Shown here: positions 10,672 through 48,809 of the stretch, piece after piece
Layout: the number at the start of each line of letters is the position of its first letter
How positions within the stretch are numbered: the first letter of the stretch is position 1
Assembly (NCBI RefSeq): GCF_018402495.1
Contig: NZ_JAGYIU010000002.1
Span: forward strand, 26,984 to 90,983
Direction of reading: 5' to 3'
DNA length: 64,000 nucleotides
Source: Pseudoalteromonas sp.
GTDB taxonomy: Bacteria > Pseudomonadota > Gammaproteobacteria > Enterobacterales > Alteromonadaceae
Translations under genes and position numbers: made by a program
The notes under the pieces: model-generated
Told to the model about the DNA's origin: nothing
The model's database searches: none
What the model saw: only the letters and a program-made list of their open reading frames with translations

Positions 10672-11280
10672 CTACTCATGGCTGACTAATCGCCTACCGC
10701 TAAACGCGTGCATAAGGGTCATTCCATCCACTAAATCAAGCTCACCACCCACAGGAATACCATGCGCAATACGAGATGCACCCACCTTATTTTTATGGCA
10801 AAGCTGGGCAATATAATGCGCCGTTGTTTCGCCTTCAACCGAAGGATTTGTGGCTAAAATGACTTCATTAATACCACCTTGCGCGAGTTTTTGCTCAAGT
10901 ACATCAAGGCCAATTTCTTTTGGTCCTATGCCATCAATGGGTGATAAGTGCCCCATTAATACAAAGTAAAGCCCTTGGTATTGGCCTGTTTGCTCAATTG
11001 CCAATACATCAGTGGGCGATTCAACAACGCATAAAATACCACTGTCTTGGCGTTTTGTACTCAAGCAAATATCACACTGCGCTTGCTCGGTAAATGTACG
11101 GCACGATTGGCAATGACCAACTGCTGCCATTGCTTTAATGAGTGCATTACCAAGTTGAGCACCACCTTTACGATCGCGCTCTAACAAATGAAACGCAATA
11201 CGCTGAGCAGACTTCGGACCAATGCCCGGCTGACAACGAAGTGCTTCTATCAGCGATGTTAAACTATCTGAAAGTTGCAT
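10672..11280 (-). CDS. recR: recombination protein RecR
   Basis: 202 aa. Contains a helix-hairpin-helix ([17 protein letters not shown]-like), a C4 zinc finger (CQSC...CDIC) and a Toprim region. Confidence 0.95.
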
Positions 11281-11286
11281 AGTTGC

Positions 11287-11613
11287 TTAGAACGGCATTT
11301 TCATACCAGGTGGTAATTGCATACCGCCTGTCACTTTACTCATACGTTCTTGCGTTTCATCGGCAACACGGCGAACAGCATCGTTACAAGCTGCTGCAAG
11401 TAAATCTTCAATCATGTCTTTATCGTCTTCCATTAAGCTTTCATCAAGCTCAACTCGGCGCACGTTATGATTACCAAGCATGGTTACTTTAACTAAACCG
11501 GCACCCGCTTCACCTACAACCTCCATCGTTGCGATTTCTTCTTGGGCTTTTTGCATGCGCTCTTGCATTTGTTGCGCTTGCTTCATCATGTTACCCATTC
11601 CACCTTTAAACAT
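11287..11613 (-). CDS. ybaB: nucleoid-associated protein YbaB/EbfC
   Basis: 108 aa. [26 protein letters not shown]... is typical of YbaB. The position between dnaX and recR is conserved. Confidence 0.95.
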
Positions 11614-11673
11614 AATCGTCTCTCTTTCTTTTAATACATTAACTGAAGTATAAATAGGGGCACTGATAGTTAA

Positions 11674-14007
11674 TTACAATGCCTGGATACTGTTTTCGTC
11701 AATTTCAGCGCTAAATAGCCGTTGAAATTGTACTACATTTTCATCACGTGTGATCACATCAATCGCTTGCTGGTGACGACCGGCATCAATTTTTTGTTGA
11801 ATCAAATAAGGCGAGTCAATTACCCCACTGGCAAAGTCGATATTTAGCTCAACGTTATGGCCATAAATAGTCGATAACGCTACATTTAACTTTTGGCGCA
11901 GCATAGGCGTATCTAAGTGCTTTTGCGATTCATCCACTTCAATATGAAAATGATTATCTTGCTTGGTAAAAATTGAATGTAAGGCAAACTGGCGCATACG
12001 CCCGCCAAGCCCCATCCGTTTTATTAAGTAAGCCCACTCATCTTGTTGATGGGCAAATCTAATTTCACTGATTGGACTTTGAAAATCATCAGGCACAGGA
12101 ATACTGGGCGCTTGTTCAACAACAGGAGCTGGTTTTTGCGGATTAATTTGCTCTAATAGCTCAGGCGCTAAATGTTCAGTAATTGTTTGGTGCTTAGCTT
12201 TAAAGTCAATGTTACTCGCTGGTTTTGTTGCAACTTGAGCTTGGCTCCCTTGCGTTGGGAGCAGGGGCTTTTTTAGTAACTCATCATCCCCTTCACTCTC
12301 CCAAGGAGGCCGCTCCTTTGCTGCAGTATGACTTGTATTGCTAATCGATTTACCAATTGGCTTAGCAGGATTAGATTTTGGTGCTCTAGGTTTTTCTGTT
12401 GCTGCGCCTGATAGTTTACCCGCACCGGAAATATTTCTATCACGTAAAATACGCGCTATCGCAGACTGTGCCCGCGCTTCTTGCTCACCCATTGTTGGCG
12501 CTGAACTCTCAGTGCTACTAGGTACGTTTGATAGTTCAGGATTAAACCCTTGGTCAAGCGCGCTACTCATTACATCATCGTATTGCGCTGCAATGGTTTG
12601 TTCTACATCGCTGTACTGCATGTAGGCATCATCTTCACTTAGACGCTGCGCTTGCTCAGTACTCACTGACGGTGTACCAGTCACATGAGGCTGACTTGGT
12701 ATTGAATTTTGTTCAGTGTGAGTGGCACTATTATCTGGTTGTGAAACCTCTGGTTCAGCGGCCTCTATTGACTGTGCATTCTCTATTAATGGCTGACTTT
12801 CAGCGTTATTACTCTGCGCTGGTTTATTTTTATTTAAAATCTCACGTAATGCATTGGTACGCTTTGCGGTATTTTGCTCTGGAGCAGGTTGCGAGCTAGG
12901 TGCTGAATGCGTCGTTTGTGACTGCTCAGGTTGAAATGCTAACAATCGTAGCATAATCATCTCAAACCCTAAGCGTGGCTCAGGCGCCCACTGTAAGTCT
13001 TTTTTGCCGTTAAGTAATAACTGATAATACACCTGAATTTGCTGAGCATGAGTGTGCGCAGCAACATGCTTAATGTAGTCAGCATTATTGCTATCAAGCG
13101 CTGCCGCTTCAGGCACCAACTGGCTTAATTGAATAATATGCGTAAGTGCGATTAGGTCGTCAAGCAGTGCAATATAATTAGGATTCCTGCTCGCTACTTG
13201 GGCAACTTCGGCCATTAAGGCGCCACCATCTTGTGCAAGCAACGCGGCGAGTAAACTCTGGCTATAATGGGTATCCATTAAACCAAGCATGGCTTGAACA
13301 GCTTGATTATTAATATCGCCATTTGTTTGGGCTATAGCCTGATCGGTCAGGCTTAAAGCATCTCGCATACTGCCATCAGCGGCTTTGGCAATTATACTTA
13401 AGGCATCATTGTCATAACTGAGCTGCTCTTGCGTAAGTACATGCTCAAGCTGATGTTTAATTTCAGCTTGCGATAGCGCATTTAAATTAAACTGTAAGCA
13501 GCGCGATAAAATAGTTACCGGTAATTTTTGCGGATCCGTGGTCGCTAATAAAAACTTTACATGCTCAGGTGGCTCCTCGAGCGTTTTTAATAAGGCATTA
13601 AAGCTATGTTTTGACAACATGTGTACTTCATCGATTAAGTACACTTTATAACGTCCGCGCGTTGGCGCATATTGAACGTTGTCAAGAATTTCGCGCGTAT
13701 CTTCAACTTTTGTTCGTGAAGCCGCATCTATTTCGAGTAAATCAATGTAGCGCCCTGCTTCTATATCAACACAGCTACTACATTGACCACATGGTGTGGC
13801 TGATATACCTTCATCACAATTTAAGCTTTTTGCAAAAATGCGCGCAATGGTTGTTTTACCAACACCACGGGTTCCAGTGAATAAATAAGCGTGATGCAGT
13901 CTATTTTGAGTCAGCGCGTTTACCAGCGCTTGTTTTACATGAGACTGCCCAACCAATTCATGAAAGGTTTGAGGACGCCATTTTCTCGCTAGAACCTGAT
14001 AACTCAT
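11674..14007 (-). CDS. dnaX: DNA polymerase III subunits tau/gamma
   Basis: MSYQVLARKWRPQTFHELVGQ... with Walker A GTRGVGKTT and a zinc module. I place the start at the ATG at 14007 (E. coli-like MSYQVLARKWRP) rather than the TTG at 14010 used by the ORF track. There is a long Q/S/P/A-rich linker before the C-terminal domain. Confidence 0.95.
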   Translation of the reverse strand: MSYQVLARKWRPQTFHELVGQSHVKQALVNALTQNRLHHAYLFTGTRGVGKTTIARIFAKSLNCDEGISATPCGQCSSCVDIEAGRYIDLLEIDAASRTKVEDTREILDNVQYAPTRGRYKVYLIDEVHMLSKHSFNALLKTLEEPPEHVKFLLATTDPQKLPVTILSRCLQFNLNALSQAEIKHQLEHVLTQEQLSYDNDALSIIAKAADGSMRDALSLTDQAIAQTNGDINNQAVQAMLGLMDTHYSQSLLAALLAQDGGALMAEVAQVASRNPNYIALLDDLIALTHIIQLSQLVPEAAALDSNNADYIKHVAAHTHAQQIQVYYQLLLNGKKDLQWAPEPRLGFEMIMLRLLAFQPEQSQTTHSAPSSQPAPEQNTAKRTNALREILNKNKPAQSNNAESQPLIENAQSIEAAEPEVSQPDNSATHTEQNSIPSQPHVTGTPSVSTEQAQRLSEDDAYMQYSDVEQTIAAQYDDVMSSALDQGFNPELSNVPSSTESSAPTMGEQEARAQSAIARILRDRNISGAGKLSGAATEKPRAPKSNPAKPIGKSISNTSHTAAKERPPWESEGDDELLKKPLLPTQGSQAQVATKPASNIDFKAKHQTITEHLAPELLEQINPQKPAPVVEQAPSIPVPDDFQSPISEIRFAHQQDEWAYLIKRMGLGGRMRQFALHSIFTKQDNHFHIEVDESQKHLDTPMLRQKLNVALSTIYGHNVELNIDFASGVIDSPYLIQQKIDAGRHQQAIDVITRDENVVQFQRLFSAEIDENSIQAL
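12244..12274 (-). other. candidate programmed -1 ribosomal frameshift site in dnaX (slippery heptamer plus hairpin)
   Basis: The minus strand reads cta AAA AAG ccc, so A AAA AAG lies in the zero frame at 12268-12274. Five nt later comes the hairpin GCTCCC-aacgcaa-GGGAGC (12244-12262). The -1 frame reaches TAA after 18 codons. Confidence 0.4.
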
Positions 14008-14010
14008 CAA

Positions 14011-14556
14011 TTATTCGCCTTCAAATTCAACCAATTTTAGGATTTTAATACCCATTTTTTCAACACGCTGCTCACCACCTAGTTCAGGTAACGATACGAC
14101 GAATGCTGCATCTGTAGCGTGGCCACCTAACTTGGCAACCAGCTTTGCTGTTGCTTCGATTGTACCACCGGTGGCCAACAAATCGTCAACAAGCAACACT
14201 TTATCTCCCGCTACAATAGCATCTGAGTGTAGCTCTAGAGTGTCTTCACCATATTCGAGTTGGTAATCTTGGCGAATAACTTCGCGCGGCAATTTACCTG
14301 GTTTACGAACTGGAATAAAAGGAACACCTAAGGCATAAGATAGTGGCGCACCAAAAATAAAACCACGCGATTCTGTGCCAATAATTTTAGTAAAACCTTG
14401 ATCTTTATAAGCGTTAATAAATGCGTCTATGGTTGCTTGAAACGCTGCAGGGTTAGCCATTAGGGTTGTTACATCGCGAAACATAATGCCCGCTTTAGGG
14501 TAATCAGCAATTGTAGTAATGCTGTTTTTGATAATTGCTGGTGTTACTTGAGTCAT
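14011..14556 (-). CDS. apt: adenine phosphoribosyltransferase
   Basis: 181 aa. Contains the PRPP-binding motif [13 protein letters not shown] and an Apt-like N-terminus. Confidence 0.95.
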
Positions 14557-14710
14557 AATTTTAACTGCTCAATGATTTATATTACAAAGCAGCAGATTAT
14601 AACCTTAAGTAGGTCTAAATTGCGAGTTCGGGATGATTAAAAACGTGGAACAAAAAAATCGTGTATAAGATGTAGGACTGAAGAAAAAACAACAGTCCTA
14701 AAAAACTAAA

Positions 14711-14833
14711 TTAAGCTAATTTAGCAATCCAACCTAGTATTGCATTCAAACAGCCTATTCCAGCAAATAAAGCTAAAAATGCAAAAAAATAAGCCGCATT
14801 AAACGGATCTTTGAACTCTTTATCGTTTGACAT
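14711..14833 (-). CDS. possible 40-aa single-TM mini-protein (not in the ORF track)
   Basis: My own translation is MSNDKEFKDPFNAAYFFAFLALFAGIGCLNAILGWIAKLA. There is a weak AAGG about 10 nt upstream. It lies 72 nt downstream of the DUF2063 gene on the same strand. Confidence 0.25.
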   Translation of the reverse strand: MSNDKEFKDPFNAAYFFAFLALFAGIGCLNAILGWIAKLA

Positions 14834-14905
14834 GGGTACAACCTTTTATTAAGCACAACAAATAAAGGCGCTATAATAGACGATGTGAAATAATCAATAA
14901 AGGGC

Positions 14906-15658
14906 TTAATCTTGATTTTTTGTCACGATAATTTGGCGCTCTGCCATGGCTGTGAGAGTACTTAATGCCCCTTGAGTTATTTGTTCAAAACTAAATTGTG
15001 GCGCCTGTTCGCTAACCTGCTGACAAATATACTCGAATGTACTCCCTGCATTATTGTCAATAATAGACAACAGCAACGCAGTCATCGCGTTGGTTGTTAA
15101 AAATTGCACCTCATCGTCTTGATCCCTGTACACAACAAAATAATGGGGTTCCTCTGAGGGCTGTTGCGGTTGAAACGTTTCGCTAATATGTTGCACGGGG
15201 TAATCATAGCTTAAGTTACGTGCCGTTTTTGATAAATAGATAGAGGATTGAGTAAGCTTATTAGCAGTCAGCGGGATCTGTTGAGGATCGGCCTGAATAA
15301 CGGAAATATCAAGTTCAATCCATTCATAATGGGCCAAGGCTAACATAAATAGAGGATCAAAATCTTTGGGCACATAGCTTGTGGCTAAATAGGTAACAAA
15401 CTCTTCGGCAATGTCTAAAAAATAAGGGGATTGACAATCATGTTCGCTGAAAAATTCACGAACCAATTGCTGCCACTGTTGATCATTATATAGCGTTTTT
15501 AAAACTGGAAATGCCGATGAGACAAACCCGTTTATATTATTAAAAAAGAGCTCCCGATAAATAGCCATGCGTCTATCTTCAACATCTGCTGGACAAGGGG
15601 CCCTGTTGGGCTGGCGAATATGAGCAATAAACTCATTTTGAATATCGGAAAATCTCAT
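14906..15658 (-). CDS. DUF2063-family protein (MbnC/HvfC/BufC-like RiPP maturation partner)
   Basis: 250 aa. The N-terminus MRFSDIQNEFIAHIRQP...RRMAIYRELFFNNINGFV is typical of DUF2063. It lies immediately downstream of a DUF692 gene. Confidence 0.8.
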   Translation of the reverse strand: MRFSDIQNEFIAHIRQPNRAPCPADVEDRRMAIYRELFFNNINGFVSSAFPVLKTLYNDQQWQQLVREFFSEHDCQSPYFLDIAEEFVTYLATSYVPKDFDPLFMLALAHYEWIELDISVIQADPQQIPLTANKLTQSSIYLSKTARNLSYDYPVQHISETFQPQQPSEEPHYFVVYRDQDDEVQFLTTNAMTALLLSIIDNNAGSTFEYICQQVSEQAPQFSFEQITQGALSTLTAMAERQIIVTKNQD

Positions 15659-15712
15659 AGTTTATACTCTTTTAAAACCATACTGTTGTTATTACTAGCT
15701 GCATAGGACTGT

Positions 15713-16570
15713 TTAAGCACTTTGCTCAGTGGATAACCGCTGCAGGTGCTTTGCTTGTAATTGATGAATTATATCCAGCTCTTTAGTTAATACATTAATA
15801 GGAGGAATATTGAAATCTCGCTCTAACAGCGTCGGAAATACACCATGCCTTTGATAAGCGCTATCGAGCAACTGCCATACAGGATCAATAACATCGGCAC
15901 CGTGAGTATCTATAATCAAGTCATCGGCTTCGTTGTAATGCCCTGCAACATGGGCATAAGCAATTCGGTTAGTTGGCAATGCAGCTAAAAAGGCATGTGC
16001 ATCGTAGCCATGATTAACTGAATTAACATAAATATTATTTACATCTAGTAGTAACTGGCAATCAGCATCTTTTAAAACAGCATTCGTGAACTCAAGCTCA
16101 GATAATTGCTGACCAGGTGCACCATAATAAGACACATTTTCCAGCACCAGTGGTCGCTCTAAAATATCTTGAACTTGTTTAACCCGAGAAACAACATGCT
16201 TAACCGCATCTTCAGTGAAAGGAATAGGCATTAAATCATACATGTGCCCTTTACCTGAGCAGTAGCTTAAATGTTCGCTATAGACTTTAATATCGTGGTT
16301 ATCAAAGAAAGATTTTAACGACTTTATAAATTCAATATCGAGCGGCTCAGGCGAGCCAATAGAAAGGGATAAACCATGGCAAACAAAATGATTATTATTA
16401 GTTAATTGCTTAAACTGCTTTTCAAAACGCCCACCTAACTTTAGCCAGTTTTCTGGTGCAACTTCCATAAACTCAATTTGTTTTGGGGTGTTAGCTACAA
16501 GCTCATGGAGCATTTCTCTTCGTAAGCCTAAACCAACCATGCCAAACTTAGGCGTTTGAATATAAGCCAT
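15713..16570 (-). CDS. DUF692/UPF0276 family enzyme (MNIO, MbnB-like RiPP maturase)
   Basis: 285 aa. Contains TIM-barrel type motifs GLGLRRE, HGLSLSIGS, SEHLSY, LENVSYY, LLDVNNIYVN, HVAGH and LLERD, characteristic of DUF692. Confidence 0.85.
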   Translation of the reverse strand: MAYIQTPKFGMVGLGLRREMLHELVANTPKQIEFMEVAPENWLKLGGRFEKQFKQLTNNNHFVCHGLSLSIGSPEPLDIEFIKSLKSFFDNHDIKVYSEHLSYCSGKGHMYDLMPIPFTEDAVKHVVSRVKQVQDILERPLVLENVSYYGAPGQQLSELEFTNAVLKDADCQLLLDVNNIYVNSVNHGYDAHAFLAALPTNRIAYAHVAGHYNEADDLIIDTHGADVIDPVWQLLDSAYQRHGVFPTLLERDFNIPPINVLTKELDIIHQLQAKHLQRLSTEQSA

Positions 16571-16585
16571 AATAAAACCTCTCGA

Positions 16586-16610
16586 TAAATAAAAAGGACC
16601 AGATTGGCCC
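16586..16610 (-). terminator. weak intrinsic terminator/attenuator between precursor and maturase genes
   Basis: The minus strand reads GGGCCA-atc-TGGTCC followed by TTTTTATTTAT. It lies in the 68-nt gap after the precursor stop and before the GAGAGG RBS of the DUF692 gene. Confidence 0.4.
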
Positions 16611-16638
16611 TACAGCTTAACTTATTTAAAAGAAAAGT

Positions 16639-17121
16639 TTAGTGGTGACCACCACATTTGCCTTCGCCGCATTTCCCTTCTTTTTCGGTCTTTTCATTGC
16701 CTTTAGTCATTGCGCCGCCACATTTACCTTCCTTTTTGGCCTTTTCATTGCCTTTAGCCATTGGGCCGCCACATTTACCTTCACCGCACTTACCTTCTTT
16801 TTTGGCCTTTTCATTACCTTTAGCCATTGCGCCGCCACATTTACCTTCACCGCACTTACCTTCTTTATTGGCCTTTTCATTACCTTTAGACATTGCGCCG
16901 CCACATTTACCTTCACCGCACTTACCTTCTTTTTTAGCTTTAGCGTCACCGCCACATTTGCCTTCGCCGCACTTGCCTTCACCAGCATCTAACTGATAAC
17001 CAGCTACCATTTGTTGAAACTCAAATGGATTAGCTTGTACACCAGTACTCGCCATACTTGCACTGCCAACAACGACTGCGCCTAATGTTAATGCAATTGA
17101 GTTTTTCTTTATTGTTTTCAT
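16639..17121 (-). CDS. secreted Cys-repeat RiPP precursor (EGKCG-repeat, HvfA/bufferin-like metallophore candidate)
   Basis: 160 aa. Sec-type signal MKTIKKNSIALTLGAVVVGSASMASTGVQA, then 11 EGKCG motifs containing all 11 Cys, and a C-terminal HH. It is the first gene of the DUF692-DUF2063 operon. Confidence 0.8.
   Translation of the reverse strand: MKTIKKNSIALTLGAVVVGSASMASTGVQANPFEFQQMVAGYQLDAGEGKCGEGKCGGDAKAKKEGKCGEGKCGGAMSKGNEKANKEGKCGEGKCGGAMAKGNEKAKKEGKCGEGKCGGPMAKGNEKAKKEGKCGGAMTKGNEKTEKEGKCGEGKCGGHH
16645..16983. repeat. 66-bp tandem coding repeats (22-aa modules EGKCGEGKCGGxMxKGNEKAxK)
   Basis: Near-identical 66-bp units are visible directly, for example ggccttttcattacctttagccattgcgccgccacatttaccttcaccgcacttaccttc. 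One module is shortened to a single EGKCG. Confidence 0.9.
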
Positions 17122-17308
17122 TTTTAATTACCTTTTAAACTTGTTGAACATCATTATACAAGTAGACCTGCATAAAGCTAAAAACTTTCAAATTATCTGT
17201 TTTTCAAAAATAAGTCACTAATCTTACTATGAGCCCTAATAAGCGTTTTATCAATTTATGATTTAAAGGTAAACTGACGCTCCTTTTAAGTAATCAATTA
17301 ACCACACT

Positions 17309-18348: not shown

Positions 18349-18675
18349 ATGCATCATCAGCAACGACTAAACGATGAGATAGAAAGTGTTAAAGCGACCA
18401 TACTAGGCCTGCTGTCACAATCTACTCACCCTACACATCAAAACTTGCTTTGTGTTCTGACCCAAACCGCTAATGAAGACTGGCTTGATATAGCAGCGCA
18501 GCAATTAGGCACCGAGTACAATCCGTTAATTGAACGAATGAACAAGCTTGAAGCAGCAATAAGCCAAATTGATATTGGCCAGTATGGTTATTGCTGTGAC
18601 TGTGAAGAAAAAATATCAGCGCAGCGATTAGAAAAAGACCCCGCCGCGCAGCGGTGTGAACAGTGCGCTAAATAA
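18349..18675 (+). CDS. DksA/TraR-family C4 zinc-finger protein
   Basis: 108 aa with a C-terminal CxxC-N17-CxxC (CDCEEKISAQRLEKDPAAQRCEQC). Confidence 0.75.
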   Translation: MHHQQRLNDEIESVKATILGLLSQSTHPTHQNLLCVLTQTANEDWLDIAAQQLGTEYNPLIERMNKLEAAISQIDIGQYGYCCDCEEKISAQRLEKDPAAQRCEQCAK

Positions 18676-19793: not shown

Positions 19794-21053
19794 TTAAATT
19801 TTAACACCGTTGCGAGCGGCTTTATCTTTAATATATGTAGCCCAACCTTTAGCAAACCGACGTGTGCTTGGGTCGTCCATAGCTTTAGTAATAGCAGCAT
19901 ATGCTTGCTTATACTTGCCTTGGTAGTAAAACGCTTCAGCTAAATCTGAATAAATGGTGCCTTTTTTGTCAGAGCCAAGCTCTAATGCTTTGTTCAAACG
20001 AACAACAGCAGCGCTGAATTTTTCAGATTGTAAAAGTAATGAACCTGCTTTGCGGTAAAGCTCAGCGTCGTCATCAAATTTGGCAGCTTCTTCGTAGTAC
20101 TTAGCCGCTTTCTCTATATCTTTAGAACGATGATAGTTACTCGCAATTGCACTAATATTTTGCTTGTCGCGTTTAACTTTCTGTTCTTTAATTGCCTTTT
20201 CAAGCGTTACGGCTGCTTTGTAAGGAATTTCGTTTAAAGAATAAAAGTTAGCCAAGACTTTATAGTCAACTTCGTTTTCAAAATAACCATTTTTGTACGC
20301 AACTTCCATTGTTGCTAAGCCCTTTTTGTAGTCTTCGGTTTGTAAGTAATACTTACCTAAGCCTACCCAAGATTTACTGTCTTCAGGCCATACACGAACG
20401 ATTTCCTCTGCAACTTTTACCATATTTTGATATTGCTTTTGCTCAAAATAGGCAGCCAACTTTAATTGGAAAGGCGCTTTTACCGGTGCTTTTTCAAGCT
20501 TAATCGCTTTATTCGCAGGTACGATAACGTCCTTAAATTGTTTAAGTTCGAAATTTGCTTGCGCAATACGCGTATAAACTTTCGGATCCTCCTCACCAGT
20601 GAAGTCCATCCAATCGGTATATGCTTGCTTTGCAGCACTGTATTGTTCAGTACCTGCATACAAGTCACCCAGCGTTTTTAGTCCTTGGGCATGATCGGCA
20701 AAGTTTAATACATCAGGTGCAACCGCTGCTTTCATATACTTAATGGCGTCATTATATTGCTCTTTTTGAGCATACATGCTGCCTAAGTAACGATTTACAG
20801 TTGCTTTATCAAAATCATTAGACGGATCTAACTCTCGTAATATTGCAATTGCACCGTCAACATCGTCTTCGTTATACAAGTCAAACGCTTTTATAACTCT
20901 TTTACCAATTCGCTCGCCCATGATTTTAGTTTTTGCATTTTTACGCTCTTCAATCTTTGCGTAATCAGGCTCTGCTAAAACGGGTGCAGTAAACACTGCA
21001 CCTGACATAGACATAAGAATTGCAAGCGCAGTTACTTTAGAAAAACTTCTCAT
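19794..21053 (-). CDS. TPR-repeat periplasmic protein (TtpD-like component of TonB2 system)
   Basis: 419 aa with a signal peptide and multiple TPR-like repeats. It is the last gene of the exbB-exbD-tonB cluster, as in the Vibrio TonB2 locus. Confidence 0.6.
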   Translation of the reverse strand: MRSFSKVTALAILMSMSGAVFTAPVLAEPDYAKIEERKNAKTKIMGERIGKRVIKAFDLYNEDDVDGAIAILRELDPSNDFDKATVNRYLGSMYAQKEQYNDAIKYMKAAVAPDVLNFADHAQGLKTLGDLYAGTEQYSAAKQAYTDWMDFTGEEDPKVYTRIAQANFELKQFKDVIVPANKAIKLEKAPVKAPFQLKLAAYFEQKQYQNMVKVAEEIVRVWPEDSKSWVGLGKYYLQTEDYKKGLATMEVAYKNGYFENEVDYKVLANFYSLNEIPYKAAVTLEKAIKEQKVKRDKQNISAIASNYHRSKDIEKAAKYYEEAAKFDDDAELYRKAGSLLLQSEKFSAAVVRLNKALELGSDKKGTIYSDLAEAFYYQGKYKQAYAAITKAMDDPSTRRFAKGWATYIKDKAARNGVKI

Positions 21054-21064
21054 TACTCGCCTCC

Positions 21065-21679
21065 TTAGTTGCCTTGGTTAAGTTTAAAGTCTAGTTGAAC
21101 TTGTAAACCAACTTGCTTTTGTGGTTTTCCGTCAATGATTTTAGGACGGTACTTCCACTTACGCAATGCACGTTTAGCTTCACGGTCAAAGATACGCTTT
21201 GGATCTGCGTCAATTACATCAACGTCTATCACACCACCTAACTCATCAATTGTGAATGAAAGTTGAACCCAACCTTCTCTACCATCACGTGCTGCTTGTG
21301 TTGGATATTTTGGTTCAATACGAACGATAGGTGTCGCATCACCATCTCGTCCAAATGCACCTGGACCACTTAGTCCACCTGCCGTGCTTCCCACATCGAT
21401 ACTTGGCATATTAAAAGACATGCTTGTATTTGGGTTGCTGTTTTCCGGCTGTGGCGGCTGCGGTTTAGGCGGCTGCTTTGGCGGTGGTGGAGGCGGAGGC
21501 GGTACACGCTTCCTCTCCTGCACCTTAGATTCAGGCGGATTCGTCATAATTTCGACTATGATCTGCTCTTTTTGTTCCGTATTACGGTCAGCCCCACCAG
21601 AGATGAGGTATGCCATGAAGTAGAACAAGCCGAAAGTAACTGCCCCACCTGCAATCAGTGAAAACAGAAAACGAATCAT
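21065..21679 (-). CDS. tonB: energy transducer TonB
   Basis: 204 aa. N-terminal TM, a Pro-rich spacer (PPPPPPPPKQPPKPQPPQPE), and a C-terminal TonB domain (EPKYPTQAARDGREGWVQLSFTI). Confidence 0.85.
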   Translation of the reverse strand: MIRFLFSLIAGGAVTFGLFYFMAYLISGGADRNTEQKEQIIVEIMTNPPESKVQERKRVPPPPPPPPKQPPKPQPPQPENSNPNTSMSFNMPSIDVGSTAGGLSGPGAFGRDGDATPIVRIEPKYPTQAARDGREGWVQLSFTIDELGGVIDVDVIDADPKRIFDREAKRALRKWKYRPKIIDGKPQKQVGLQVQLDFKLNQGN

Positions 21680-22083
21680 TACTGATCTCCAGCTATTGAA
21701 ATTCTCAGGTTATCACCCGTCGCTTTAATCTGGTCCATTACTTTAACCACTGTGCCGTGTTTTGCTTCTTTGTCAGCTTGCAAAATGACAACTTCAGTAG
21801 GTTGCTCTGCTAATAAGCTTTCAATTTTTGCTGAAACACGTTCAACATCAATTTGTTGCTTATCAATCCAGATTTCACCGTTGTTACGGATAGCAATAAA
21901 AATGTTAGCATTTTTTTGCTTCGTAGCTTGGGCCGCTTTTGGTTTATTGACCTCGATACCAGCCTCTTTAACGAACGATGTAGTTACGATAAAGAAAATA
22001 AGCATGATAAATACGATGTCAAGCATTGGTGTCATATCTACCGCTGCTTCTTCTTCTTCACGAAAACGTTGTTTACGTGCCAT
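21679..22083 (-). CDS. exbD: biopolymer transporter ExbD
   Basis: 134 aa. MTPMLDIVFIMLIFFIV is a typical ExbD/TolR N-terminus. Confidence 0.9.
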   Translation of the reverse strand: MARKQRFREEEEAAVDMTPMLDIVFIMLIFFIVTTSFVKEAGIEVNKPKAAQATKQKNANIFIAIRNNGEIWIDKQQIDVERVSAKIESLLAEQPTEVVILQADKEAKHGTVVKVMDQIKATGDNLRISIAGDQ

Positions 22084-22097
22084 ATTTAATTCTCTCT

Positions 22098-22622
22098 CTA
22101 GTGATGAGGCATACTATCTACAAGCTTGGCTTTCACCATTCTCGCTCTTGCCTCAAGGCGTGAGCTAAAGAATACTCCAGATAGTGCCGCAACCATTCCA
22201 GCCATTGTTGGGATTGTTGCCATTGATATGCCTGATGCCATTAAACGTGCGTTACCGGTACCTTGGGTTGCCATGGTTTCAAAAACCGCGATCATTCCCG
22301 TTACCGTACCTAACAAACCGATTAAAGGGCATATAGCTACTAATGTTTTAATCAACAACATACGCTGATCTAATTTTTCAGACGCTTCAGAAATCCATGC
22401 TTCACGGATTCTGTGTGCGTACCAAGACGTAGTGTCCTGGCGGGCATCCCACTTTGCTACAATTTCCTTCGTCATGCGAGGAAACTCAGCAAGTAAGAAC
22501 CAATAGCGCTCAATCATTAAAACCCACATCAGAAAGAGTGCTATCGCGACCACGTATAAAACCTGGCCGCCTGTGCCAACAAAATCCCTGATAGATTCCC
22601 AGATCTCCATCAGGACTAACAT
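22098..22622 (-). CDS. exbB: MotA/TolQ/ExbB proton channel protein ExbB
   Basis: 174 aa. Contains the ExbB C-terminal motif PLIGLLGTVTGMIAVF...ISMATIPTMAGM. Confidence 0.9.
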   Translation of the reverse strand: MLVLMEIWESIRDFVGTGGQVLYVVAIALFLMWVLMIERYWFLLAEFPRMTKEIVAKWDARQDTTSWYAHRIREAWISEASEKLDQRMLLIKTLVAICPLIGLLGTVTGMIAVFETMATQGTGNARLMASGISMATIPTMAGMVAALSGVFFSSRLEARARMVKAKLVDSMPHH

Positions 22623-23986
22623 TAGGCTTTCTCCTTCTCCGCGTGAGTAGCAACGATACCCGCGCTTTGCTCATCAAGGATGTGTAATACCGACTTACTA
22701 CGACCTGCAACAATAGCGTGAAGTAAAATAAGTGGTAATGCAGCAATTAGACCTAGCGCTGTAGTTACAAGTGCTAGAGAGATATTACCAGCCATAATCT
22801 TAGGATCGCCCGTACCGAACAATGTGATTGTTTGGAATGTTAAGATCATACCGATTACCGTACCTAATAAACCAAGTAATGGTGCGATAGCAGCCAAGAT
22901 CTTGATAATGTTGATACCGGCTTCAATGCGTGGTGTTTCACGTAAAATCGCTTCATCTAATTTAAGCTCAAGGTTTTCAACGTCTTGATTCTTGTTGTCA
23001 TGGTAAACTTTTAATATGCGACCCAGTGGGTTATTAGCGTTTGGCGTACCCGCATTTTTTAGTTGGCTATTAATTTTACTCTTAGTTAGAGTAAGGTCAA
23101 CAAAACGAACTAGGAAAATTAATAGACCTAAGCCTAATAATGCAGTGATGATATAGCCTACTACATCACCTTGATGATAGTACTCTGAAAGCGTTGCTTT
23201 TTGCGTGTTAATACGCAATATCGCGCCACGTGTGGGGTCTATAAAAACACCCGCGTAGTTATCAGAAGACGTATTTTCAAGATCTGAAATACCCTTTAAT
23301 ATGTAACCATCCGGTTGCTTACCTAAAGGCTGAATAGACTTAGTTTCAGCTGAATAAATCAGGTAACCGTCATCGGTAACGAGGTTAAAATTACCAATAC
23401 GCGTTACTTTTTTCATAGATGGGTTACCATCAAGGCCTGCAACTTCAGTTTCAAATGTTGAAACTTTAGCTGACTCAGTCATTTCTGTTTGAAGTGAAAT
23501 CCAAAGTTCTTCTAACTCACGAACCGTTGGAAGTTCTTTAGCCGCAGCTAATGAACGAAGTACTTCAGCACGACCTGGTTTTTCAGCACTTACTAAAGAA
23601 GCTTCAATTGAACCAATTGCATCAGCTGCTGCACGACGAACAACACCAAACATTTCACCTAACGTACCTTGAGCATTTTGAAGCGCTTGCTCTTTTTCTG
23701 CTAAGGTATTTTCGTTTTGTGCATATTCTTTACTAAGGCGATCACCACGTGCTTTTTCGGCAGCTAATTGGCTTTTTGCTTTATTAAGTAACGCTTGTTT
23801 ATCAGCACGATCTGATAAGAACTCTTGTTCACGTTGCTTGTTAAGTTTTCCTTCAGAAATACGCTCTTGCTTTACTTGCTCAAGAATTTTATCTAAAGCA
23901 TCAGTATTTGCATGTGCATTAAGCGCGGTACCGGCAGAAACAGACAGTACTGCTGCAATAGCAAAACCTTTAAATAGTTTCTTCAT
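22622..23986 (-). CDS. large MotA/TolQ/ExbB-family protein (TtpC-like)
   Basis: 454 aa. Signal peptide plus a coiled-coil periplasmic region, and a C-terminal ExbB-like channel motif APLLGLLGTVIGMILTF. Confidence 0.75.
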   Translation of the reverse strand: MKKLFKGFAIAAVLSVSAGTALNAHANTDALDKILEQVKQERISEGKLNKQREQEFLSDRADKQALLNKAKSQLAAEKARGDRLSKEYAQNENTLAEKEQALQNAQGTLGEMFGVVRRAAADAIGSIEASLVSAEKPGRAEVLRSLAAAKELPTVRELEELWISLQTEMTESAKVSTFETEVAGLDGNPSMKKVTRIGNFNLVTDDGYLIYSAETKSIQPLGKQPDGYILKGISDLENTSSDNYAGVFIDPTRGAILRINTQKATLSEYYHQGDVVGYIITALLGLGLLIFLVRFVDLTLTKSKINSQLKNAGTPNANNPLGRILKVYHDNKNQDVENLELKLDEAILRETPRIEAGINIIKILAAIAPLLGLLGTVIGMILTFQTITLFGTGDPKIMAGNISLALVTTALGLIAALPLILLHAIVAGRSKSVLHILDEQSAGIVATHAEKEKA

Positions 23987-23992
23987 TATTGA

Positions 23993-24763
23993 TTACTCCG
24001 CGCCAAAAATTGGTAGTTTAACAAGTTCTAGTGTGGCTTGCTTACGTGCCATACGGATCACTTCTTTAACAGGTTTTAGGTATTCTTCACCTAATTCTTT
24101 CCACTGTTTAGTGTTGTTATCCCACACCCAAGCGTGTTTCAGATCGAATGATTGAGCAACGTAAGTAATACGACCTAAACGACCGATATCAACGTTAATG
24201 CTACGACCATCAACTTCTAAAGTACCTTGAGAAGCATTTACAGCTGAGCTGTATGATGTTTCAACAGTGTACGCTTCAAGAACCTGGCGGAATTTCTCAG
24301 ACGTTGTTACAGATGAAGATGCCATGATCTCACGTAATCTTTCAACGCGTCCAAGACGAGTTTCAAGGCTAAATGGAACGTCCGCTTTGATGAATTGCTC
24401 GAGCGTATCGATCATGCGATACATCAAAGGCACAACGTTTTGTTTTGTGTTGTCGATAGTCGCGATTTGACGATCGAACGATGCAATAGACGCATTTTGG
24501 TCAGCGACCAAACGTGCTACGTGATCGTTGTACACTTTCATAAGTTCAGTCTCATCAACGATGCTACGGTACTCAGCAATTAGCTCCTGAGTTTGACCAT
24601 ATACATTGTCAATTTTAGTTTGAGACTTAACTGCAGCCTTTTGAATTGTTTGACCTGCTTTTTGCACGTCATTCAAAGGATCTGCAATCACATTGCTGCT
24701 TGCAAATGCAAAAGCGCCAACCAACGCAGTTGCTACAAGACTCTTTCTGATTTTAACAGACAT
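23993..24763 (-). CDS. DUF3450-like periplasmic coiled-coil protein (TtpB-like), first gene of TonB2 cluster
   Basis: Signal peptide MSVKIRKSLVATALVGAFAFA. I prefer the ATG at 24763 over the TTG at 24772. The gene position is as in Vibrio TonB2 loci. Confidence 0.6.
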   Translation of the reverse strand: MSVKIRKSLVATALVGAFAFASSNVIADPLNDVQKAGQTIQKAAVKSQTKIDNVYGQTQELIAEYRSIVDETELMKVYNDHVARLVADQNASIASFDRQIATIDNTKQNVVPLMYRMIDTLEQFIKADVPFSLETRLGRVERLREIMASSSVTTSEKFRQVLEAYTVETSYSSAVNASQGTLEVDGRSINVDIGRLGRITYVAQSFDLKHAWVWDNNTKQWKELGEEYLKPVKEVIRMARKQATLELVKLPIFGAE

Positions 24764-25424
24764 AGTTCCCAACCAATTAAGTAATGTTACTTTTATAATT
24801 TAATTATCAACCCGCAAAGGGAAGACAACCCTGATATCTTTTAATAGATATCAACTTATCAATAATGCTAAATGCATTAAGTCATGTCAACTTCATGTTT
24901 CGCATAACCTATAAATAAATCAGCTTGTTTGTAATTTATTTAAAAGGCAAACACAATTTAATTAACAATATTGCAACCTAGGTGACAAATATAATTTCAG
25001 CAAAGCCCGATATACTAAGAATATAGATAACCCCCTTGGTTAAAGTAAACAAAAAAATAACATTTAAAATTAACTTAATCTTGGCTAAAAAAAAATTAAA
25101 AATAAGCTAATTTTCTGTTCCGAATATTCCTTTTTAGTGGTTTTTAAAACTTTTTAACACAAAAATACAGCTAATCGTTATTATTCGCCCACTCATCGCA
25201 TAACAATAAAGACGTGTTGAATACTCAAAAAGCAATACAAAGGTGAAAAATAAAGTTACAAAAAGCCATTTTTATTAACACATAAATTTTTTGTTTACTA
25301 TTGAGCATATAGACTCAGCTCATCGTTTATGCTTTTCATGTAGGGATGTTAATCCTACTCACTTTAATAAACTTAATACTGAAACGGGTAGATTAAATTT
25401 ATAAAGGTAAATAGTGAGAAGTAA

Positions 25425-43869: not shown

Positions 43870-44456
43870 GTAGGGTGAGATTTTGTCTTACCCCTCTCAC
43901 AGTGCCGTACCTACGGGCCCTATATACGGCTCCTGTATTCTTCTATATCTTTGGCTTATTTTCTAAACCTTGATTGAGCAAGCCATCCTATACATATAAA
44001 CCTTGCTCTTCAAAGCATTGGTTTGGCATCACTATACTCGATAATGGGCTTAGAGAATTTCGCCATGAGTTCATTTTGATGAATTAAATGGCAGCTTTTC
44101 CCTAATTGTTTTAGTCTTTTATGCAACCTCACTGAATTTTTCCACAACCTTAACTCAATTGCCCTTAATCGTCGTCTCACCCACCTCGTCAACGCCTCTA
44201 GTACCCGTTTACAATTGGCTATACTGAAATAATTTACAAAACCTCGCGCCACTGGGTTTGGTCTTTTTATTACTTCAACTAAGTTCATGCCGCTATTTAG
44301 TTTTGTTAATCGTTTAACTGTTTGTTTGAAGCCCTTGAGTTTTGAGCCTTGGATCCGTGTCCAATTACTGCCTATCTCCACCCCCAAGAACTTTACCCTT
44401 TCACTACTATGCGCTGTATGCGTTTTCTTTTGGTTGACTGTTAACTTCAGGAGCAA
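43870..44456 (-). mobile_element. 3' remnant of a group II intron (maturase C-terminus, domain V, domain VI)
   Basis: On the minus strand, GAGCCGTATATAGGGCCCGTAGGTACGGCAC (43902-43932) resembles domain V with an AGC triad. It is followed by a GTGAGA...TCTCAC hairpin (domain VI-like) ending ...CCCTAC. The 5' two-thirds of the intron is absent, so the upstream boundary is uncertain. Confidence 0.6.
44010..44456 (-). pseudogene. truncated group II intron reverse transcriptase/maturase (C-terminal ~145 aa only)
   Basis: KFLGVEI..., ARGFVNYFSIA, LTRWVRRRLRAIELRLWK are typical RT-domain-7/thumb (domain X) motifs. No RT domains 1-6 lie upstream. Confidence 0.75.
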
Positions 44457-44586
44457 GTATGTAGTTGGCTACGGCAACACTGTCTATCAAATCGTGTATT
44501 TAGTGGTTATGAAGAAATAGTAAAACAAGTATCGCAATCGTGGAATAAATTCATCTCAGTTCCTGATACGGTTAAAAGCATATGCT

Positions 44587-44613
44587 TGCATATTCTCCCC
44601 AGCTTTGATCACC
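44587..44613. repeat. IS21-family left terminal inverted repeat
   Basis: tgcatattctccccagctttgatcacc. Further ctttgatc repeats lie about 44630-44720. Confidence 0.8.
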
Positions 44614-44803
44614 CAATGGCATTAACTTTGATCGCTTATTCTCATTAAGCTTTGATCACGAAAATTACTCGATAATGATCACTTTTGTGCTCTTAATAAT
44701 TTTGCCGATCAAAGCTTAATGCCACTCGTCACCGAGTTCACGTTTTATCATTTTTGTAGGTATGTTAAACCGTTATCTAAATCATTTGATGAGGATAACA
44801 ATA

Positions 44804-46354: not shown

Positions 46355-46365
46355 GGAAACGAATC

Positions 46366-47121
46366 ATGATAGACACCATTAACCAACAACTTCAACTACT
46401 TAAGTTATCGGGTATAAAGCAGGCACTCAAGCAGCAGCTTGAACAGCCTAACTTATATCAAGAACAAAGCTTTATAGAGCGCGTTAGTTTATTGCTAACA
46501 CATGAAATTGACACGCGTGAGCAAAGAAAAATTGACCGGCTCGTGCGACAGGCTAAATTCCGCTTACCGGCTCAGTTAAATCAACTGATTTACTCGCCGA
46601 CACGCAATATAGAAAAAGCACAGATACGCAACTTAAGCCAAAATAGCTGGCTGAACTTACATCAAAATATCTTAATCACTGGCGCAACAGGCTGTGGCAA
46701 AACATACCTCGCATGTGCTTTAGGGCATGAGCACTGCCTAAAAGGAAAAAGTGTTTACTATGTTCGATTAAAAGAACTACTTGAAAGCCTGTTTCTAGCA
46801 CAAGCAGATGGTAGTTACCGAAAATTACTAGCGAAGTTAATAAAGTATGATCTACTGATCTTAGACGATTGGGGGCTTGAACCACTGAGTGCACAGCAAC
46901 GAGGTGACTTACTCGAATTAATCGATTCACGGTATGGGTATAAATCACACATAATAATAAGTCAGCTCCCGCAGGAAAACTGGCATGAGATGATAGGAGA
47001 ATCAACCCATGCTGACGCCATTTTAGATAGGCTAATTCATGGTTCGATTAAGTTGAACTTAAAAGGAGAATCGATACGAAAACAGTTAAATAAATTGACT
47101 GATGATGATCAGTTAAGCTAA
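46366..47121 (+). CDS. istB: IS21-family helper ATPase IstB
   Basis: 251 aa. Walker A GATGCGKTYLACALG and Walker B LLILDDWG. Confidence 0.9.
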   Translation: MIDTINQQLQLLKLSGIKQALKQQLEQPNLYQEQSFIERVSLLLTHEIDTREQRKIDRLVRQAKFRLPAQLNQLIYSPTRNIEKAQIRNLSQNSWLNLHQNILITGATGCGKTYLACALGHEHCLKGKSVYYVRLKELLESLFLAQADGSYRKLLAKLIKYDLLILDDWGLEPLSAQQRGDLLELIDSRYGYKSHIIISQLPQENWHEMIGESTHADAILDRLIHGSIKLNLKGESIRKQLNKLTDDDQLS

Positions 47122-48746: not shown

Positions 48747-48809
48747 GCTCTGGTTTACTTGTAGAAAAAAATACGCGTAAATCCGCCGATTATAACCATT
48801 CAATAAGAA

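What the first reader, a model, noticed from the sequence alone, without database searches (positions are those of the whole stretch)
14711..17121. Compact RiPP metallophore locus: secreted Cys-repeat peptide + DUF692 (MNIO) + DUF2063, embedded between apt and dusC
Seen in the sequence: a minus-strand operon with three genes.
- 17121 to 16639: a 160-aa signal-peptide protein whose only Cys residues sit in 11 EGKCG motifs.
- 16570 to 15713: a 285-aa DUF692/UPF0276 TIM-barrel protein.
- 15658 to 14906: a 250-aa DUF2063 protein.

Established knowledge: DUF692 enzymes are multinuclear non-heme iron oxidases (MNIO). With a partner protein they carry out four-electron oxidations of Cys in ribosomal peptides. 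Examples are MbnBC in methanobactin and TglHI. As far as I recall, HvfBC of Haemophilus and BufBC of the bufferins act on EGKCG-type precursors to give copper-binding heterocycles.

Inference: this locus makes a periplasmic, heavily modified, multivalent Cu (or other soft-metal) chelating peptide. It has no regulator, transporter or protease of its own, and it sits in otherwise housekeeping DNA.
Basis: partly seen in the sequence, partly recalled or inferred. Interest (0 to 1): 0.9.

Follow-up and report, generated by a model that had tools for sequence, protein, structure and literature searches.

The report
Known HvfABC copper-binding peptide operon
This is a correctly spotted but ordinary member of the already described HvfABC ("oxazolin") family, in which an iron enzyme turns the cysteines of a secreted repeat peptide into copper-binding rings; here it sits at a fixed, anciently conserved chromosomal spot in a marine Pseudoalteromonas.

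Summary
Three minus-strand genes encode a 160-aa Sec-signal peptide whose 11 Cys all lie in EGKCG motifs, a 285-aa MNIO and a 250-aa DUF2063 partner.

Curated NCBIfam models place them above cut-off in the HvfA-family domain, HvfB and HvfC families. They fall below cut-off for bufferin (BufB) and methanobactin (MbnB).

The family is well studied: H. influenzae oxazolin, fontiphorin, gonophorin and bulbicupramide, with Pseudoalteromonas members already cited. The modification has since been reassigned from oxazolone/thioamide to 5-thiooxazole.

This is a new member of a known kind, not a discovery.

New details found here:
- The dusC | hvfABC | apt-dnaX arrangement is conserved across Alteromonadales, so the locus is not an island.
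- An ECF-sigma-like promoter motif, TGAAA(T/G)-N17-GGTCTa, lies upstream of hvfA in 44 of 60 loci.
- A terminator-like hairpin follows hvfA in 48 of 71 loci.
- No DoxX/HvfX gene is present.
- An unannotated but strongly conserved 40-aa membrane-protein gene follows hvfC. It also occurs in Vibrio next to ybaN-apt without hvf, so its link to the pathway is unproven.

The parts
17163..17189 (-). Candidate ECF-sigma-type promoter of hvfA: GAAAGTTTT, 12 nt, GGTCTACT. The -10-like element lies about 40 nt upstream of the start codon.
   Evidence: TGAAA(T/G)-N17-GGTCTa.T with fixed spacing lies upstream of hvfA in 44 of 60 related loci, against 2% of random 260-nt windows. It is the only match in the window. 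It resembles the Neisseria sigma-E consensus GTMAGBWTT-N12-13-CGTCTAAH, which drives the homologous NMB2140 operon (PMC2893595), and Shewanella RpoE promoters GAACTT-N16/17-GTCTAC (PMC4336711). That it functions as a promoter is inferred, not shown.
16639..17121 (-). hvfA: 160-aa precursor peptide. Signal peptide is residues 1-30 (nt 17121-17032, predicted cleavage after VQA). Conserved N-terminal motif NPFEFQQMVAGYQLD is residues 31-45 (nt 17031-16987). The Gly/Lys/Glu-rich repeat region with 11 EGKCG is residues 48-157 (nt 16980-16651).
   Evidence: NF050137 scores 66.8 bits against a cut-off of 19.5, in 4 stretches. 1846 related protein clusters, many named HvfA family. [x][PS]F-x(4-10)-GY is present in 59 of 62 full-length relatives. 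F33 is invariant and N31, P32, G41 and Y42 are at least 90% conserved. Signal peptide and cleavage site come from sequence inspection.
16595..16611 (-). Terminator-like hairpin (AGGGCCA-AUC-UGGUCCU followed by UUUUUAUUUAU) between hvfA and hvfB. Probably an attenuator that gives more precursor transcript than enzyme transcript.
   Evidence: -11.2 kcal/mol, z = -2.2. A GC-rich hairpin plus T-run lies at the same place in 48 of 71 related loci, although the sequence differs. The attenuator role is inferred.
15713..16570 (-). hvfB: multinuclear non-heme iron oxidase (MNIO, formerly DUF692) with a TIM-barrel fold.
   Evidence: NF003818 HvfB family scores 445 bits against a cut-off of 360; PF05114 scores 357 bits. 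Match to PDB 3BWW at E = 4.8e-76. Histidine-, aspartate- and glutamate-containing motifs shared with 3BWW, the likely iron-binding positions, are all present: HGLSLS 65-70, SEHLS 98-102, LENVSYY 143-149, LDVNNIYVN 175-183, AHVAGH 206-211, IDTHG 220-224, LLERDF 248-253. By motif, these appear to include the equivalents of H. influenzae site-3 residues N175, D242 and H244 (bioRxiv 10.64898/2026.07.17.739211). No signal peptide.
14906..15658 (-). hvfC: DUF2063 / PME-type-1 partner protein with a RiPP recognition element.
   Evidence: NF050145 HvfC scores 306 bits against a cut-off of 142. PF09836 and PF22106 also hit. Match to PDB 3DEE (NGO1945) at E = 6.7e-11.
14711..14833 (-). Conserved 40-aa single-helix membrane protein (MSNDKEFKDPFNAAYFFAFLALFAGIGCLNAILGWIAKLA). 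Probably co-transcribed with hvfABC here, but membership of the pathway is uncertain.
   Evidence: A family HMM finds it directly after hvfC in 57 of 80 loci, at 54 bits or more against noise of 8.9 bits or less. pN/pS is 0.135 to 0.32. 259 clusters, all 'hypothetical', no Pfam or NCBIfam model. Terminator-like hairpins lie after it in 41 of 53 loci but in the hvfC-to-small-gene gap in only 4 of 53. Against pathway membership: in Vibrio and Grimontia it precedes ybaN-apt with no hvf nearby.
14673..14700 (-). Stable hairpin (UAGGACUG...CAGUCCUA) just after the small ORF. Possible end of the transcription unit, before apt.
   Evidence: -13 kcal/mol, z = -3.75, 0 of 200 shuffles as stable. It lacks an immediate U-tract and so is not a canonical terminator. 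Most relatives have a canonical terminator at this position.

Best explanation
This is an hvfABC-type biosynthetic operon of a Pseudoalteromonas species. The family is variously called oxazolin, Buf_EGKCG or captophorin.

Proposed mechanism:
1. HvfA is made in the cytoplasm with a Sec signal peptide.
2. HvfC binds HvfA through its RiPP-recognition domain, probably at the conserved NPF...GYQ segment. HvfC also enables the mixed-valent diiron state of HvfB.
3. HvfB uses O2 to oxidise each of up to 11 EGKCG cysteines by four electrons (-4 Da each) to a 5-thiooxazole.
4. The modified, largely unstructured Gly/Lys-rich peptide is exported by Sec, and its signal peptide is cleaved after VQA30.
5. 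In the periplasm the thiooxazole sulfur and nitrogen donors bind several Cu(I) ions, buffering copper and possibly oxidant stress.

Expression is probably driven by an ECF-type sigma promoter. A hairpin after hvfA keeps precursor transcript in excess over enzyme transcript.

Shown here: gene content, family membership, conserved motifs (including likely iron-ligand motifs), synteny and conserved non-coding signals. Inferred from characterised homologues: the chemistry, the export order, copper binding and the regulation.
For: - Curated family models are above cut-off for all three proteins. Pfam agrees.
- Structural homologues are 3BWW and 3DEE.
- All conserved His/Asp/Glu motifs shared with 3BWW (likely iron ligands) are retained in HvfB.
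- All 11 Cys lie in EGKCG. This is the motif shown experimentally to be converted at every Cys in HvfA, FonA and NgoA (PMC11252979; PMC12668002; bioRxiv 10.64898/2026.06.05.730506).
- The hvfA-hvfB-hvfC order is conserved. All 80 loci fetched with HvfB also encode an HvfC match, and an HvfA-like EGKCG/KCG-repeat gene lies upstream of hvfB in 71 of them (5 to 24 Cys in the full-length copies).
- HvfB and HvfC have no signal peptides, whereas HvfA does (sequence inspection).
- The promoter motif is conserved, as is the attenuator hairpin.
- Homologous operons are ECF-controlled in Neisseria (PMC2893595).
Against: - Nothing was measured on this organism. The modification, its stoichiometry (11 or fewer sites) and metal binding are extrapolated.
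- HvfA scores below the strict H. influenzae equivalog cut-off (NF050188: 68 against 95). It lacks the two N-terminal disulfide Cys of H. influenzae HvfA.
- Its repeat unit is 22 residues, not the 17 described as typical.
- No DoxX/HvfX gene is in the locus or the window.
- The physiological role of EGKCG peptides (copper detoxification or oxidative-stress defence) is unsettled in the literature.
- The sigma factor is unidentified, and none is encoded in the window.
- The AlphaFold model was uninformative (pLDDT 44).
Confidence: 0.88

Rival explanations
1. Same biosynthesis, different role. The peptide's main job is not copper buffering but protection of the envelope against oxidants (HOCl, H2O2) or general envelope stress, as part of an ECF-sigma regulon. 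Copper binding would be incidental to its mercaptan-like groups.
For: The conserved promoter resembles sigma-E-type ECF promoters (PMC2893595; PMC4336711). Homologous operons lie in oxidative-stress ECF regulons in Neisseria and are linked to oxidative stress in H. influenzae (PMC11252979; PMC7907618 is cited for this by PMC12668002). No copper gene (copA, cueR, cusRS) is adjacent in the window.
Against: Every characterised family member binds Cu(I). Bufferins raise copper tolerance in vivo (PMC11626156). The two roles are not mutually exclusive.
Confidence: 0.3
2. The locus is a bufferin (BufABC) system in the strict sense. That would mean a folded DUF2282 or 6/12-Cys precursor with few, ordered copper sites.
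For: HvfB is closely related to BufB (273 bits). The MNIOs of both groups fall in one sequence cluster (PMC12452194).
Against: The BufB score is below its cut-off (273 against 310), while HvfB is above its own (445 against 360). The precursor has no DUF2282 hit and is an EGKCG repeat. There are no sigma/NrsF or DoxX genes.
Confidence: 0.03
3. The product is a methanobactin-like secreted chalkophore used to acquire copper. It would carry oxazolone/thioamide groups, be cleaved from a leader and be exported by a dedicated transporter.
For: The enzyme superfamily is the same. The original 2024 assignment for HvfA was oxazolone/thioamide (PMC11252979).
Against: MbnB model scores 39.7 bits against a cut-off of 325. 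The partner is DUF2063, not MbnC. The precursor has a Sec signal peptide. There is no MATE or TonB-type mbn transporter in the operon. The modification in EGKCG peptides has been reassigned to 5-thiooxazole (bioRxiv 10.64898/2026.06.05.730506; PMC12668002).
Confidence: 0.03
4. HvfA is an unmodified Cys-rich low-complexity periplasmic protein, for example a thiolate metal sponge, and its position next to the MNIO and DUF2063 genes is coincidental.
For: Some databases label relatives merely 'low-complexity protein'. The AlphaFold model is disordered.
Against: The A-B-C gene order is kept across dozens of genera. Very few EGKCG genes occur without MNIO and PME1 genes in the same genome (PMC12452194). 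Three homologues have been shown to be modified.
Confidence: 0.02

Closest known systems
HvfABC(X) / oxazolin of nontypeable Haemophilus influenzae (PMC11252979; bioRxiv 10.64898/2026.06.05.730506 and 10.64898/2026.07.17.739211)
   Same: Sec-signal precursor with repeated EGKCGEGKCG. HvfB-family MNIO and HvfC partner, both above the NCBIfam cut-offs. Gene order A-B-C. Predicted 5-thiooxazole at every motif Cys, with Cu(I) binding.
   Different: 11 motif Cys instead of 6. 160 aa instead of 95. No N-terminal disulfide Cys pair. 22-residue repeat unit with long Lys/Ala/Asn spacers. No DoxX/HvfX gene. Free-living marine host. HvfA scores below the strict equivalog cut-off (68 against 95 bits).
FonABC (fontiphorin, Fontimonas thermophila) and NgoABC (gonophorin, Neisseria gonorrhoeae), both 'captophorins' (PMC12668002)
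   Same: fon is a minimal three-gene cluster of precursor, MNIO and PME1 with EGKCG repeats. The 5-thiooxazole chemistry is the same. The Neisseria operon is ECF-sigma driven, and its promoter resembles the motif found here.
   Different: The Neisseria operon encodes its own sigma and anti-sigma factors. No such genes are in this window.
MmrABC / bulbicupramide of marine Microbulbifer (PMC12538549)
   Same: Three-gene EGKCG cluster obligately conserved across a marine gammaproteobacterial genus. Variable Cys number (5-8). Conserved N-terminal region with a variable repeat core.
   Different: Different order (Cellvibrionales) and genomic position. Fewer repeats.
Buf_EGKCG/oxazolin proteins of Pseudoalteromonas described by Leprevost et al. 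(PMC12452194: P. byunsanensis WP_070991527; P. piscicida, 58 Cys)
   Same: Same genus and same precursor family. This window is simply another species' copy.
   Different: That survey describes 17-residue repeats, a predicted beta-helix and frequent DoxX. Here the unit is 22 residues, AlphaFold gives no confident fold and DoxX is absent.
Bufferins BufABC(D) (PMC11626156) and methanobactin MbnABC
   Same: MNIO-catalysed four-electron Cys oxidation that yields copper ligands. Bufferins also use a DUF2063 partner and a Sec signal.
   Different: Precursor families differ. The family models score below cut-off (BufB 273 against 310; MbnB 40 against 325).

Membership tests
HvfABC / oxazolin (Buf_EGKCG, captophorin) RiPP system | Precursor carries repeated (E)GKCG / KCGExKCG motifs | tested here: met
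   11 EGKCG motifs holding all 11 Cys. NF050137 scores 66.8 bits against a cut-off of 19.5.
HvfABC / oxazolin (Buf_EGKCG, captophorin) RiPP system | Precursor has an N-terminal Sec signal peptide | tested here: met
   Sequence inspection only, as no SignalP tool was available. MKTIKK n-region, IALTLGAVVVG h-region, VQA-N cleavage motif. Relatives show the same layout.
HvfABC / oxazolin (Buf_EGKCG, captophorin) RiPP system | Precursor is an equivalog of H. influenzae HvfA (NF050188) | tested here: not met
   68.2 bits against a cut-off of 95. It is a family member by the domain model, not a one-to-one equivalog of the 95-aa Haemophilus protein.
HvfABC / oxazolin (Buf_EGKCG, captophorin) RiPP system | Adjacent HvfB-family MNIO with intact iron ligands | tested here: met
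   NF003818 scores 445 bits against a cut-off of 360. 3BWW match at E = 4.8e-76. All conserved His/Asp/Glu (likely iron-ligand) motifs are present.
HvfABC / oxazolin (Buf_EGKCG, captophorin) RiPP system | Adjacent HvfC (DUF2063 / PME-type-1, RRE) partner | tested here: met
   NF050145 scores 306 bits against a cut-off of 142. PF09836 and PF22106 hit. 3DEE match.
HvfABC / oxazolin (Buf_EGKCG, captophorin) RiPP system | DoxX-like HvfX gene in the cluster (frequent but not universal; absent from fon and mmr) | tested here: not met
   No HvfX in the locus or the window (tblastn E > 0.1). HvfX (NF050144, 202-244 bits) is present in 14 more distant loci.
HvfABC / oxazolin (Buf_EGKCG, captophorin) RiPP system | -4 Da per motif Cys, 302-305 nm chromophore, 5-thiooxazole by alkylation and HMBC | not testable with these tools
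   Requires expression, mass spectrometry and NMR.
HvfABC / oxazolin (Buf_EGKCG, captophorin) RiPP system | Cu(I) binding by the modified peptide | not testable with these tools
   Requires metal titration.
Bufferins (BufABC, Buf1/Buf2) | DUF2282 or 6/12-Cys precursor, and a BufB equivalog enzyme | tested here: not met
   No DUF2282 hit. NF050167 BufB scores 273 bits against a cut-off of 310.
Methanobactin (MbnABC) | MbnB equivalog, MbnC partner, and a short leader-core MbnA without a signal peptide | tested here: not met
   TIGR04159 scores 39.7 bits against a cut-off of 325. The partner is DUF2063. The precursor has a signal peptide.

The most novel reading that the evidence does not exclude
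The unannotated 40-aa membrane protein encoded directly after hvfC (FKDPFN motif, one helix, conserved Trp) may be a working fourth component of the Alteromonadales hvf operon. It would take the place of DoxX/HvfX, for example by coupling modified HvfA to the membrane or Sec, or by handling copper at the inner membrane. The whole unit would be driven by a dedicated ECF sigma factor through the conserved TGAAA-N17-GGTCTa promoter.
Probability: 0.2. Interest if true: 0.5.

Novelty: new member of a known kind. Interest (0 to 1): 0.25.

Why it matters
As a locus it matters little. It adds one more Pseudoalteromonas copy to a family with more than 20,000 catalogued clusters and curated annotation models.

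The comparative by-products are of modest use to the field:
1. In Alteromonadales the operon is core-genome and fixed next to apt-dnaX, which argues for a housekeeping stress role rather than an accessory trait.
2. The conserved ECF-like promoter and the post-precursor attenuator give testable handles on regulation, which is an acknowledged gap for EGKCG peptides.
3. Repeat-number variation (5 to 24 Cys) and frequent assembly breaks inside hvfA mean that precursor genes are under-called in draft genomes.
4. A widespread unnamed small membrane protein sits where DoxX lies in other lineages.

Tried and rejected
1. Small protein as a remnant of the last DoxX/HvfX helix. By eye, FN-AAYF...GW aligns with EFAATYF...YW. 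hhalign gave E = 0.049 and probability 1% over 14 columns, and the small-protein HMM does not rank HvfX above noise. Rejected as unsupported.

2. Small protein as an hvf-specific fourth gene. This was supported at first by its presence in 57 of 80 HvfB-anchored loci, by mutual exclusion with HvfX and by its retention with hvfC where apt is absent (L010, L011, L025). It was then weakened: look-ups anchored on the small protein itself showed that in four Vibrio lineages and in Grimontia it precedes ybaN-apt without hvf. It is kept only as a minority reading.

3. Shared promoter for the Vibrio small gene. TGAAA-N17-GGTCT is absent there.

4. Shewanella RpoE2/ChrR as the regulator. Its motif, TGATCC...CGTAAT (PMC4336711), does not match.

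5. AlphaFold2 of HvfA with 21 sequences. pLDDT 44, no secondary structure, so no support here for the beta-helix reported for 17-residue-repeat relatives.

6. Rfam scans. Nothing in the locus at E <= 1.

7. Exact-sequence look-up of HvfA. Not on record. The identical public contig breaks inside the repeats.

8. Metagenome scan anchored on the small-protein alignment.

9. ECF sigma gene in the window. None found among the ORFs scanned against Pfam.
Full report
**Observation**

They are 17121..16639 (160 aa), 16570..15713 (285 aa) and 15658..14906 (250 aa).

The 160-aa product starts with a typical Sec signal: MKTIKK, a hydrophobic core, and VQA followed by NPF. It contains 11 cysteines, and every one lies inside an EGKCG motif.

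The repeats are real at DNA level. They form a 66-bp unit present in 3.2 copies at 95% identity, plus a 51-bp variant that has lost one EGKCG.

The flanks are apt and dnaX downstream, and upstream a divergently transcribed Dus-family gene that best matches DusC, though below that model's cut-off (341 bits against 395).

**What it is**

Pfam gives MbnB_TglH_ChrH (357 bits) for the second protein, and DUF2063 plus NGO1945_C for the third. NCBIfam is more specific:
- The precursor matches the HvfA-family KCGExKCG domain: 66.8 bits against a cut-off of 19.5.
- The enzyme matches the HvfB-family MNIO maturase: 445 against 360.
- The partner matches HvfC: 306 against 142.
- The bufferin enzyme model (273 against 310) and the methanobactin MbnB model (40 against 325) are not reached.

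The enzyme is a close homologue of the diiron-containing structure 3BWW (E = 4.8e-76). It keeps every conserved His/Asp/Glu motif shared with 3BWW, the likely iron-binding positions. By motif, these appear to include the counterparts of the H. influenzae residues N175, D242 and H244, shown by mutagenesis to be essential (bioRxiv 10.64898/2026.07.17.739211).

The partner matches NGO1945 (3DEE).

A search of the large protein collection finds 1846 related precursor clusters. Many are already named 'HvfA family oxazolone/thioamide-modified RiPP metallophore'.

**Organism and context**

The nearest HvfB relatives are from Pseudoalteromonas (79% identity). Apt is 93-94% identical to Pseudoalteromonas proteins. 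A public 'Pseudoalteromonas sp.' record encodes an identical 40-aa protein.

A Logan contig from run SRR14300309 is 100% identical to window 10711-16794 and ends inside the hvfA repeats.

Among the 80 loci fetched with HvfB, the order dusC | hvfA-hvfB-hvfC | (ybaN) apt-dnaX recurs in part or in full. It is seen in Pseudoalteromonas, Shewanella, Rheinheimera, Paraglaciecola, Ferrimonas, Neiella and others.

It reflects an old, vertically inherited core-genome position, not a recent insertion.

The rest of the window is also housekeeping: adk, mnh antiporter, recR, a TonB/ExbBD/TPR cluster, tol-pal and ruvABC.

**How it most likely works**

The chemistry is taken from characterised homologues. 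In H. influenzae, HvfB and HvfC together oxidise all six EGKCG cysteines of HvfA, with -4 Da each and a 302 nm chromophore. The product binds copper (PMC11252979).

The modification was first called oxazolone/thioamide. It has since been reassigned to 5-thiooxazole, both by the original authors and independently (bioRxiv 10.64898/2026.06.05.730506; PMC12668002). PMC12668002 also showed the same chemistry for fontiphorin and gonophorin.

Here HvfB and HvfC lack signal peptides and HvfA has one. Modification should therefore precede Sec export, and the mature peptide of about 130 residues should sit in the periplasm with up to 11 thiooxazoles. That mature part contains 34 Gly, 28 Lys and 17 Glu.

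The best-conserved non-repeat part of the precursor is NPF-x-F...GYQ, directly after the signal peptide. It is present in 59 of 62 full-length relatives, and F33 is invariant. It is a reasonable candidate for the segment bound by HvfC, but that is inference.

Cysteine number among relatives ranges from 5 to 24, so 11 is unremarkable.

**Non-coding signals found here**

Upstream of hvfA, the alignment of Pseudoalteromonas intergenic regions is poorly conserved except for two blocks. Extending to all loci, TGAAA(T/G)-N17-GGTCTa.T with fixed spacing lies upstream of hvfA in 44 of 60 loci. It occurs in only 2% of random 260-nt windows from the same DNA.

The window copy is GAAAGTTTT, 12 nt, GGTCTACT at 17189..17163. 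It is the only match in 64 kb.

The architecture resembles two known promoter types:
- The Neisseria sigma-E consensus GTMAGBWTT-N12-13-CGTCTAAH, which drives the homologous NMB2140 operon (PMC2893595).
- Shewanella RpoE promoters GAACTT-N16/17-GTCTAC (PMC4336711).

It does not match the Shewanella RpoE2 motif. I read it as an ECF-type promoter whose sigma factor is unidentified. No sigma gene is in the window.

Between hvfA and hvfB there is a GC-rich hairpin followed by a U-run (16611..16595; -11.2 kcal/mol, z = -2.2). An equivalent hairpin, different in sequence, occupies the same gap in 48 of 71 loci. This fits partial termination that keeps the precursor in excess over its enzymes.

Rfam finds nothing in the locus.

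**The fourth ORF**

The 40-aa ORF (14833..14711) is a real gene:
- A profile of it finds a homologue immediately after hvfC in 57 of 80 loci, at 54 bits or more against 8.9 bits or less for everything else.
- Substitutions are mostly synonymous, with pN/pS of 0.135, 0.19 and 0.32 in three genera.
- 259 clusters exist in public data, all 'hypothetical' and without any family model.

In the more distant loci that lack it, a DoxX/HvfX gene (NF050144) often follows hvfC instead. The two never co-occur in the sample.

Terminator-like hairpins follow the small gene in 41 of 53 loci. They lie between hvfC and the small gene in only 4 of 53. In Alteromonadales it therefore looks like the last gene of the hvf transcript.

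This suggested a DoxX substitute. However, look-ups anchored on the small protein itself show that in Vibrio (four lineages) and Grimontia it sits directly upstream of ybaN-apt-dnaX with no hvf genes nearby. In one case it overlaps the ybaN start.

The family is therefore tied to the apt neighbourhood at least as much as to hvf, and the exclusion with DoxX is confounded by phylogeny. I give a functional link about one chance in five.

**Comparison and novelty**

The locus meets the sequence-testable defining features of the HvfABC/oxazolin (Buf_EGKCG, captophorin) family that I could test. Two exceptions:
- It misses the strict H. influenzae HvfA equivalog score.
- It lacks DoxX, which is also absent from the characterised fon and mmr clusters.

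It differs from the type system in repeat number, repeat length (22 residues, against the 17 described as typical in PMC12452194) and the absence of the N-terminal Cys pair.

Pseudoalteromonas members of the family have already been discussed in print (PMC12452194). The finding is thus a correct identification of a new member of a known kind.

- BufBC do not act on EGKCG precursors.
- The heterocycle is a 5-thiooxazole.
- The interest score was far too high.

**Limits**

No experiment was possible. The modification, copper binding, promoter activity and attenuation are all inferred. AlphaFold2 gave no confident model (pLDDT 44). The complete genome could not be searched for the sigma factor or for a DoxX gene elsewhere.

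Noticed in passing
window 14711-14833 (-): Unannotated-family 40-aa membrane protein (FKDPFN motif, one helix, conserved Trp) under purifying selection. 259 public clusters, all 'hypothetical', across Alteromonadales and Vibrionaceae. It follows hvfC in Alteromonadales and precedes ybaN-apt in Vibrio.
   Followed up: yes
window 17163-17189 (-); 44 of 60 related loci: Conserved bipartite motif TGAAA(T/G)-N17-GGTCTa upstream of hvfA. It resembles ECF sigma-E-type promoters. The sigma factor is unknown.
   Followed up: partly
window 16595-16611 (-); 48 of 71 related loci: Position-conserved terminator-like hairpin between the precursor gene and the enzyme genes. Probably a transcriptional attenuator.
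   Followed up: partly
L001, L002, L015, L022, L025, L032, L041, L059, L068, L071, L072, L081: Public draft contigs frequently end inside or just next to hvfA: 11 of the 80 HvfB-anchored loci, plus the contig identical to this window. The 66-bp repeats break short-read assemblies, so precursor genes are truncated or missed in annotations.
   Followed up: partly
window 48548-49609 (-): Seven tandem tRNA-Lys(UUU) genes with identical Rfam scores (about 145-bp spacing, with one 262-bp gap), just downstream of the tol-pal-cpoB cluster.
   Followed up: no
window 44010-47121: Small patch of mobile-element genes in otherwise housekeeping DNA. It holds a 148-aa ORF with only a group II intron maturase domain (a fragment; no intron RNA found by Rfam), then an IS21-like transposase (rve plus Mu-transposase C domain, 530 aa) and a 251-aa ORF.
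   Followed up: no
window 19794-24772 (-); L087: A DUF3450-ExbB-ExbB-ExbD-TonB-TPR cluster lies on the same strand a few genes upstream of hvf. In Bowmanella the ExbB-ExbD-TonB-TPR genes abut hvfA, with only a 322-nt non-coding gap and no dusC between them. This is positional only; no functional link was tested.
   Followed up: no
window 18349-18675 (+): 108-aa DksA/TraR-type C4 zinc-finger protein next to dusC. It is conserved beside the locus in Pseudoalteromonas and, in part, in Shewanella.
   Followed up: no
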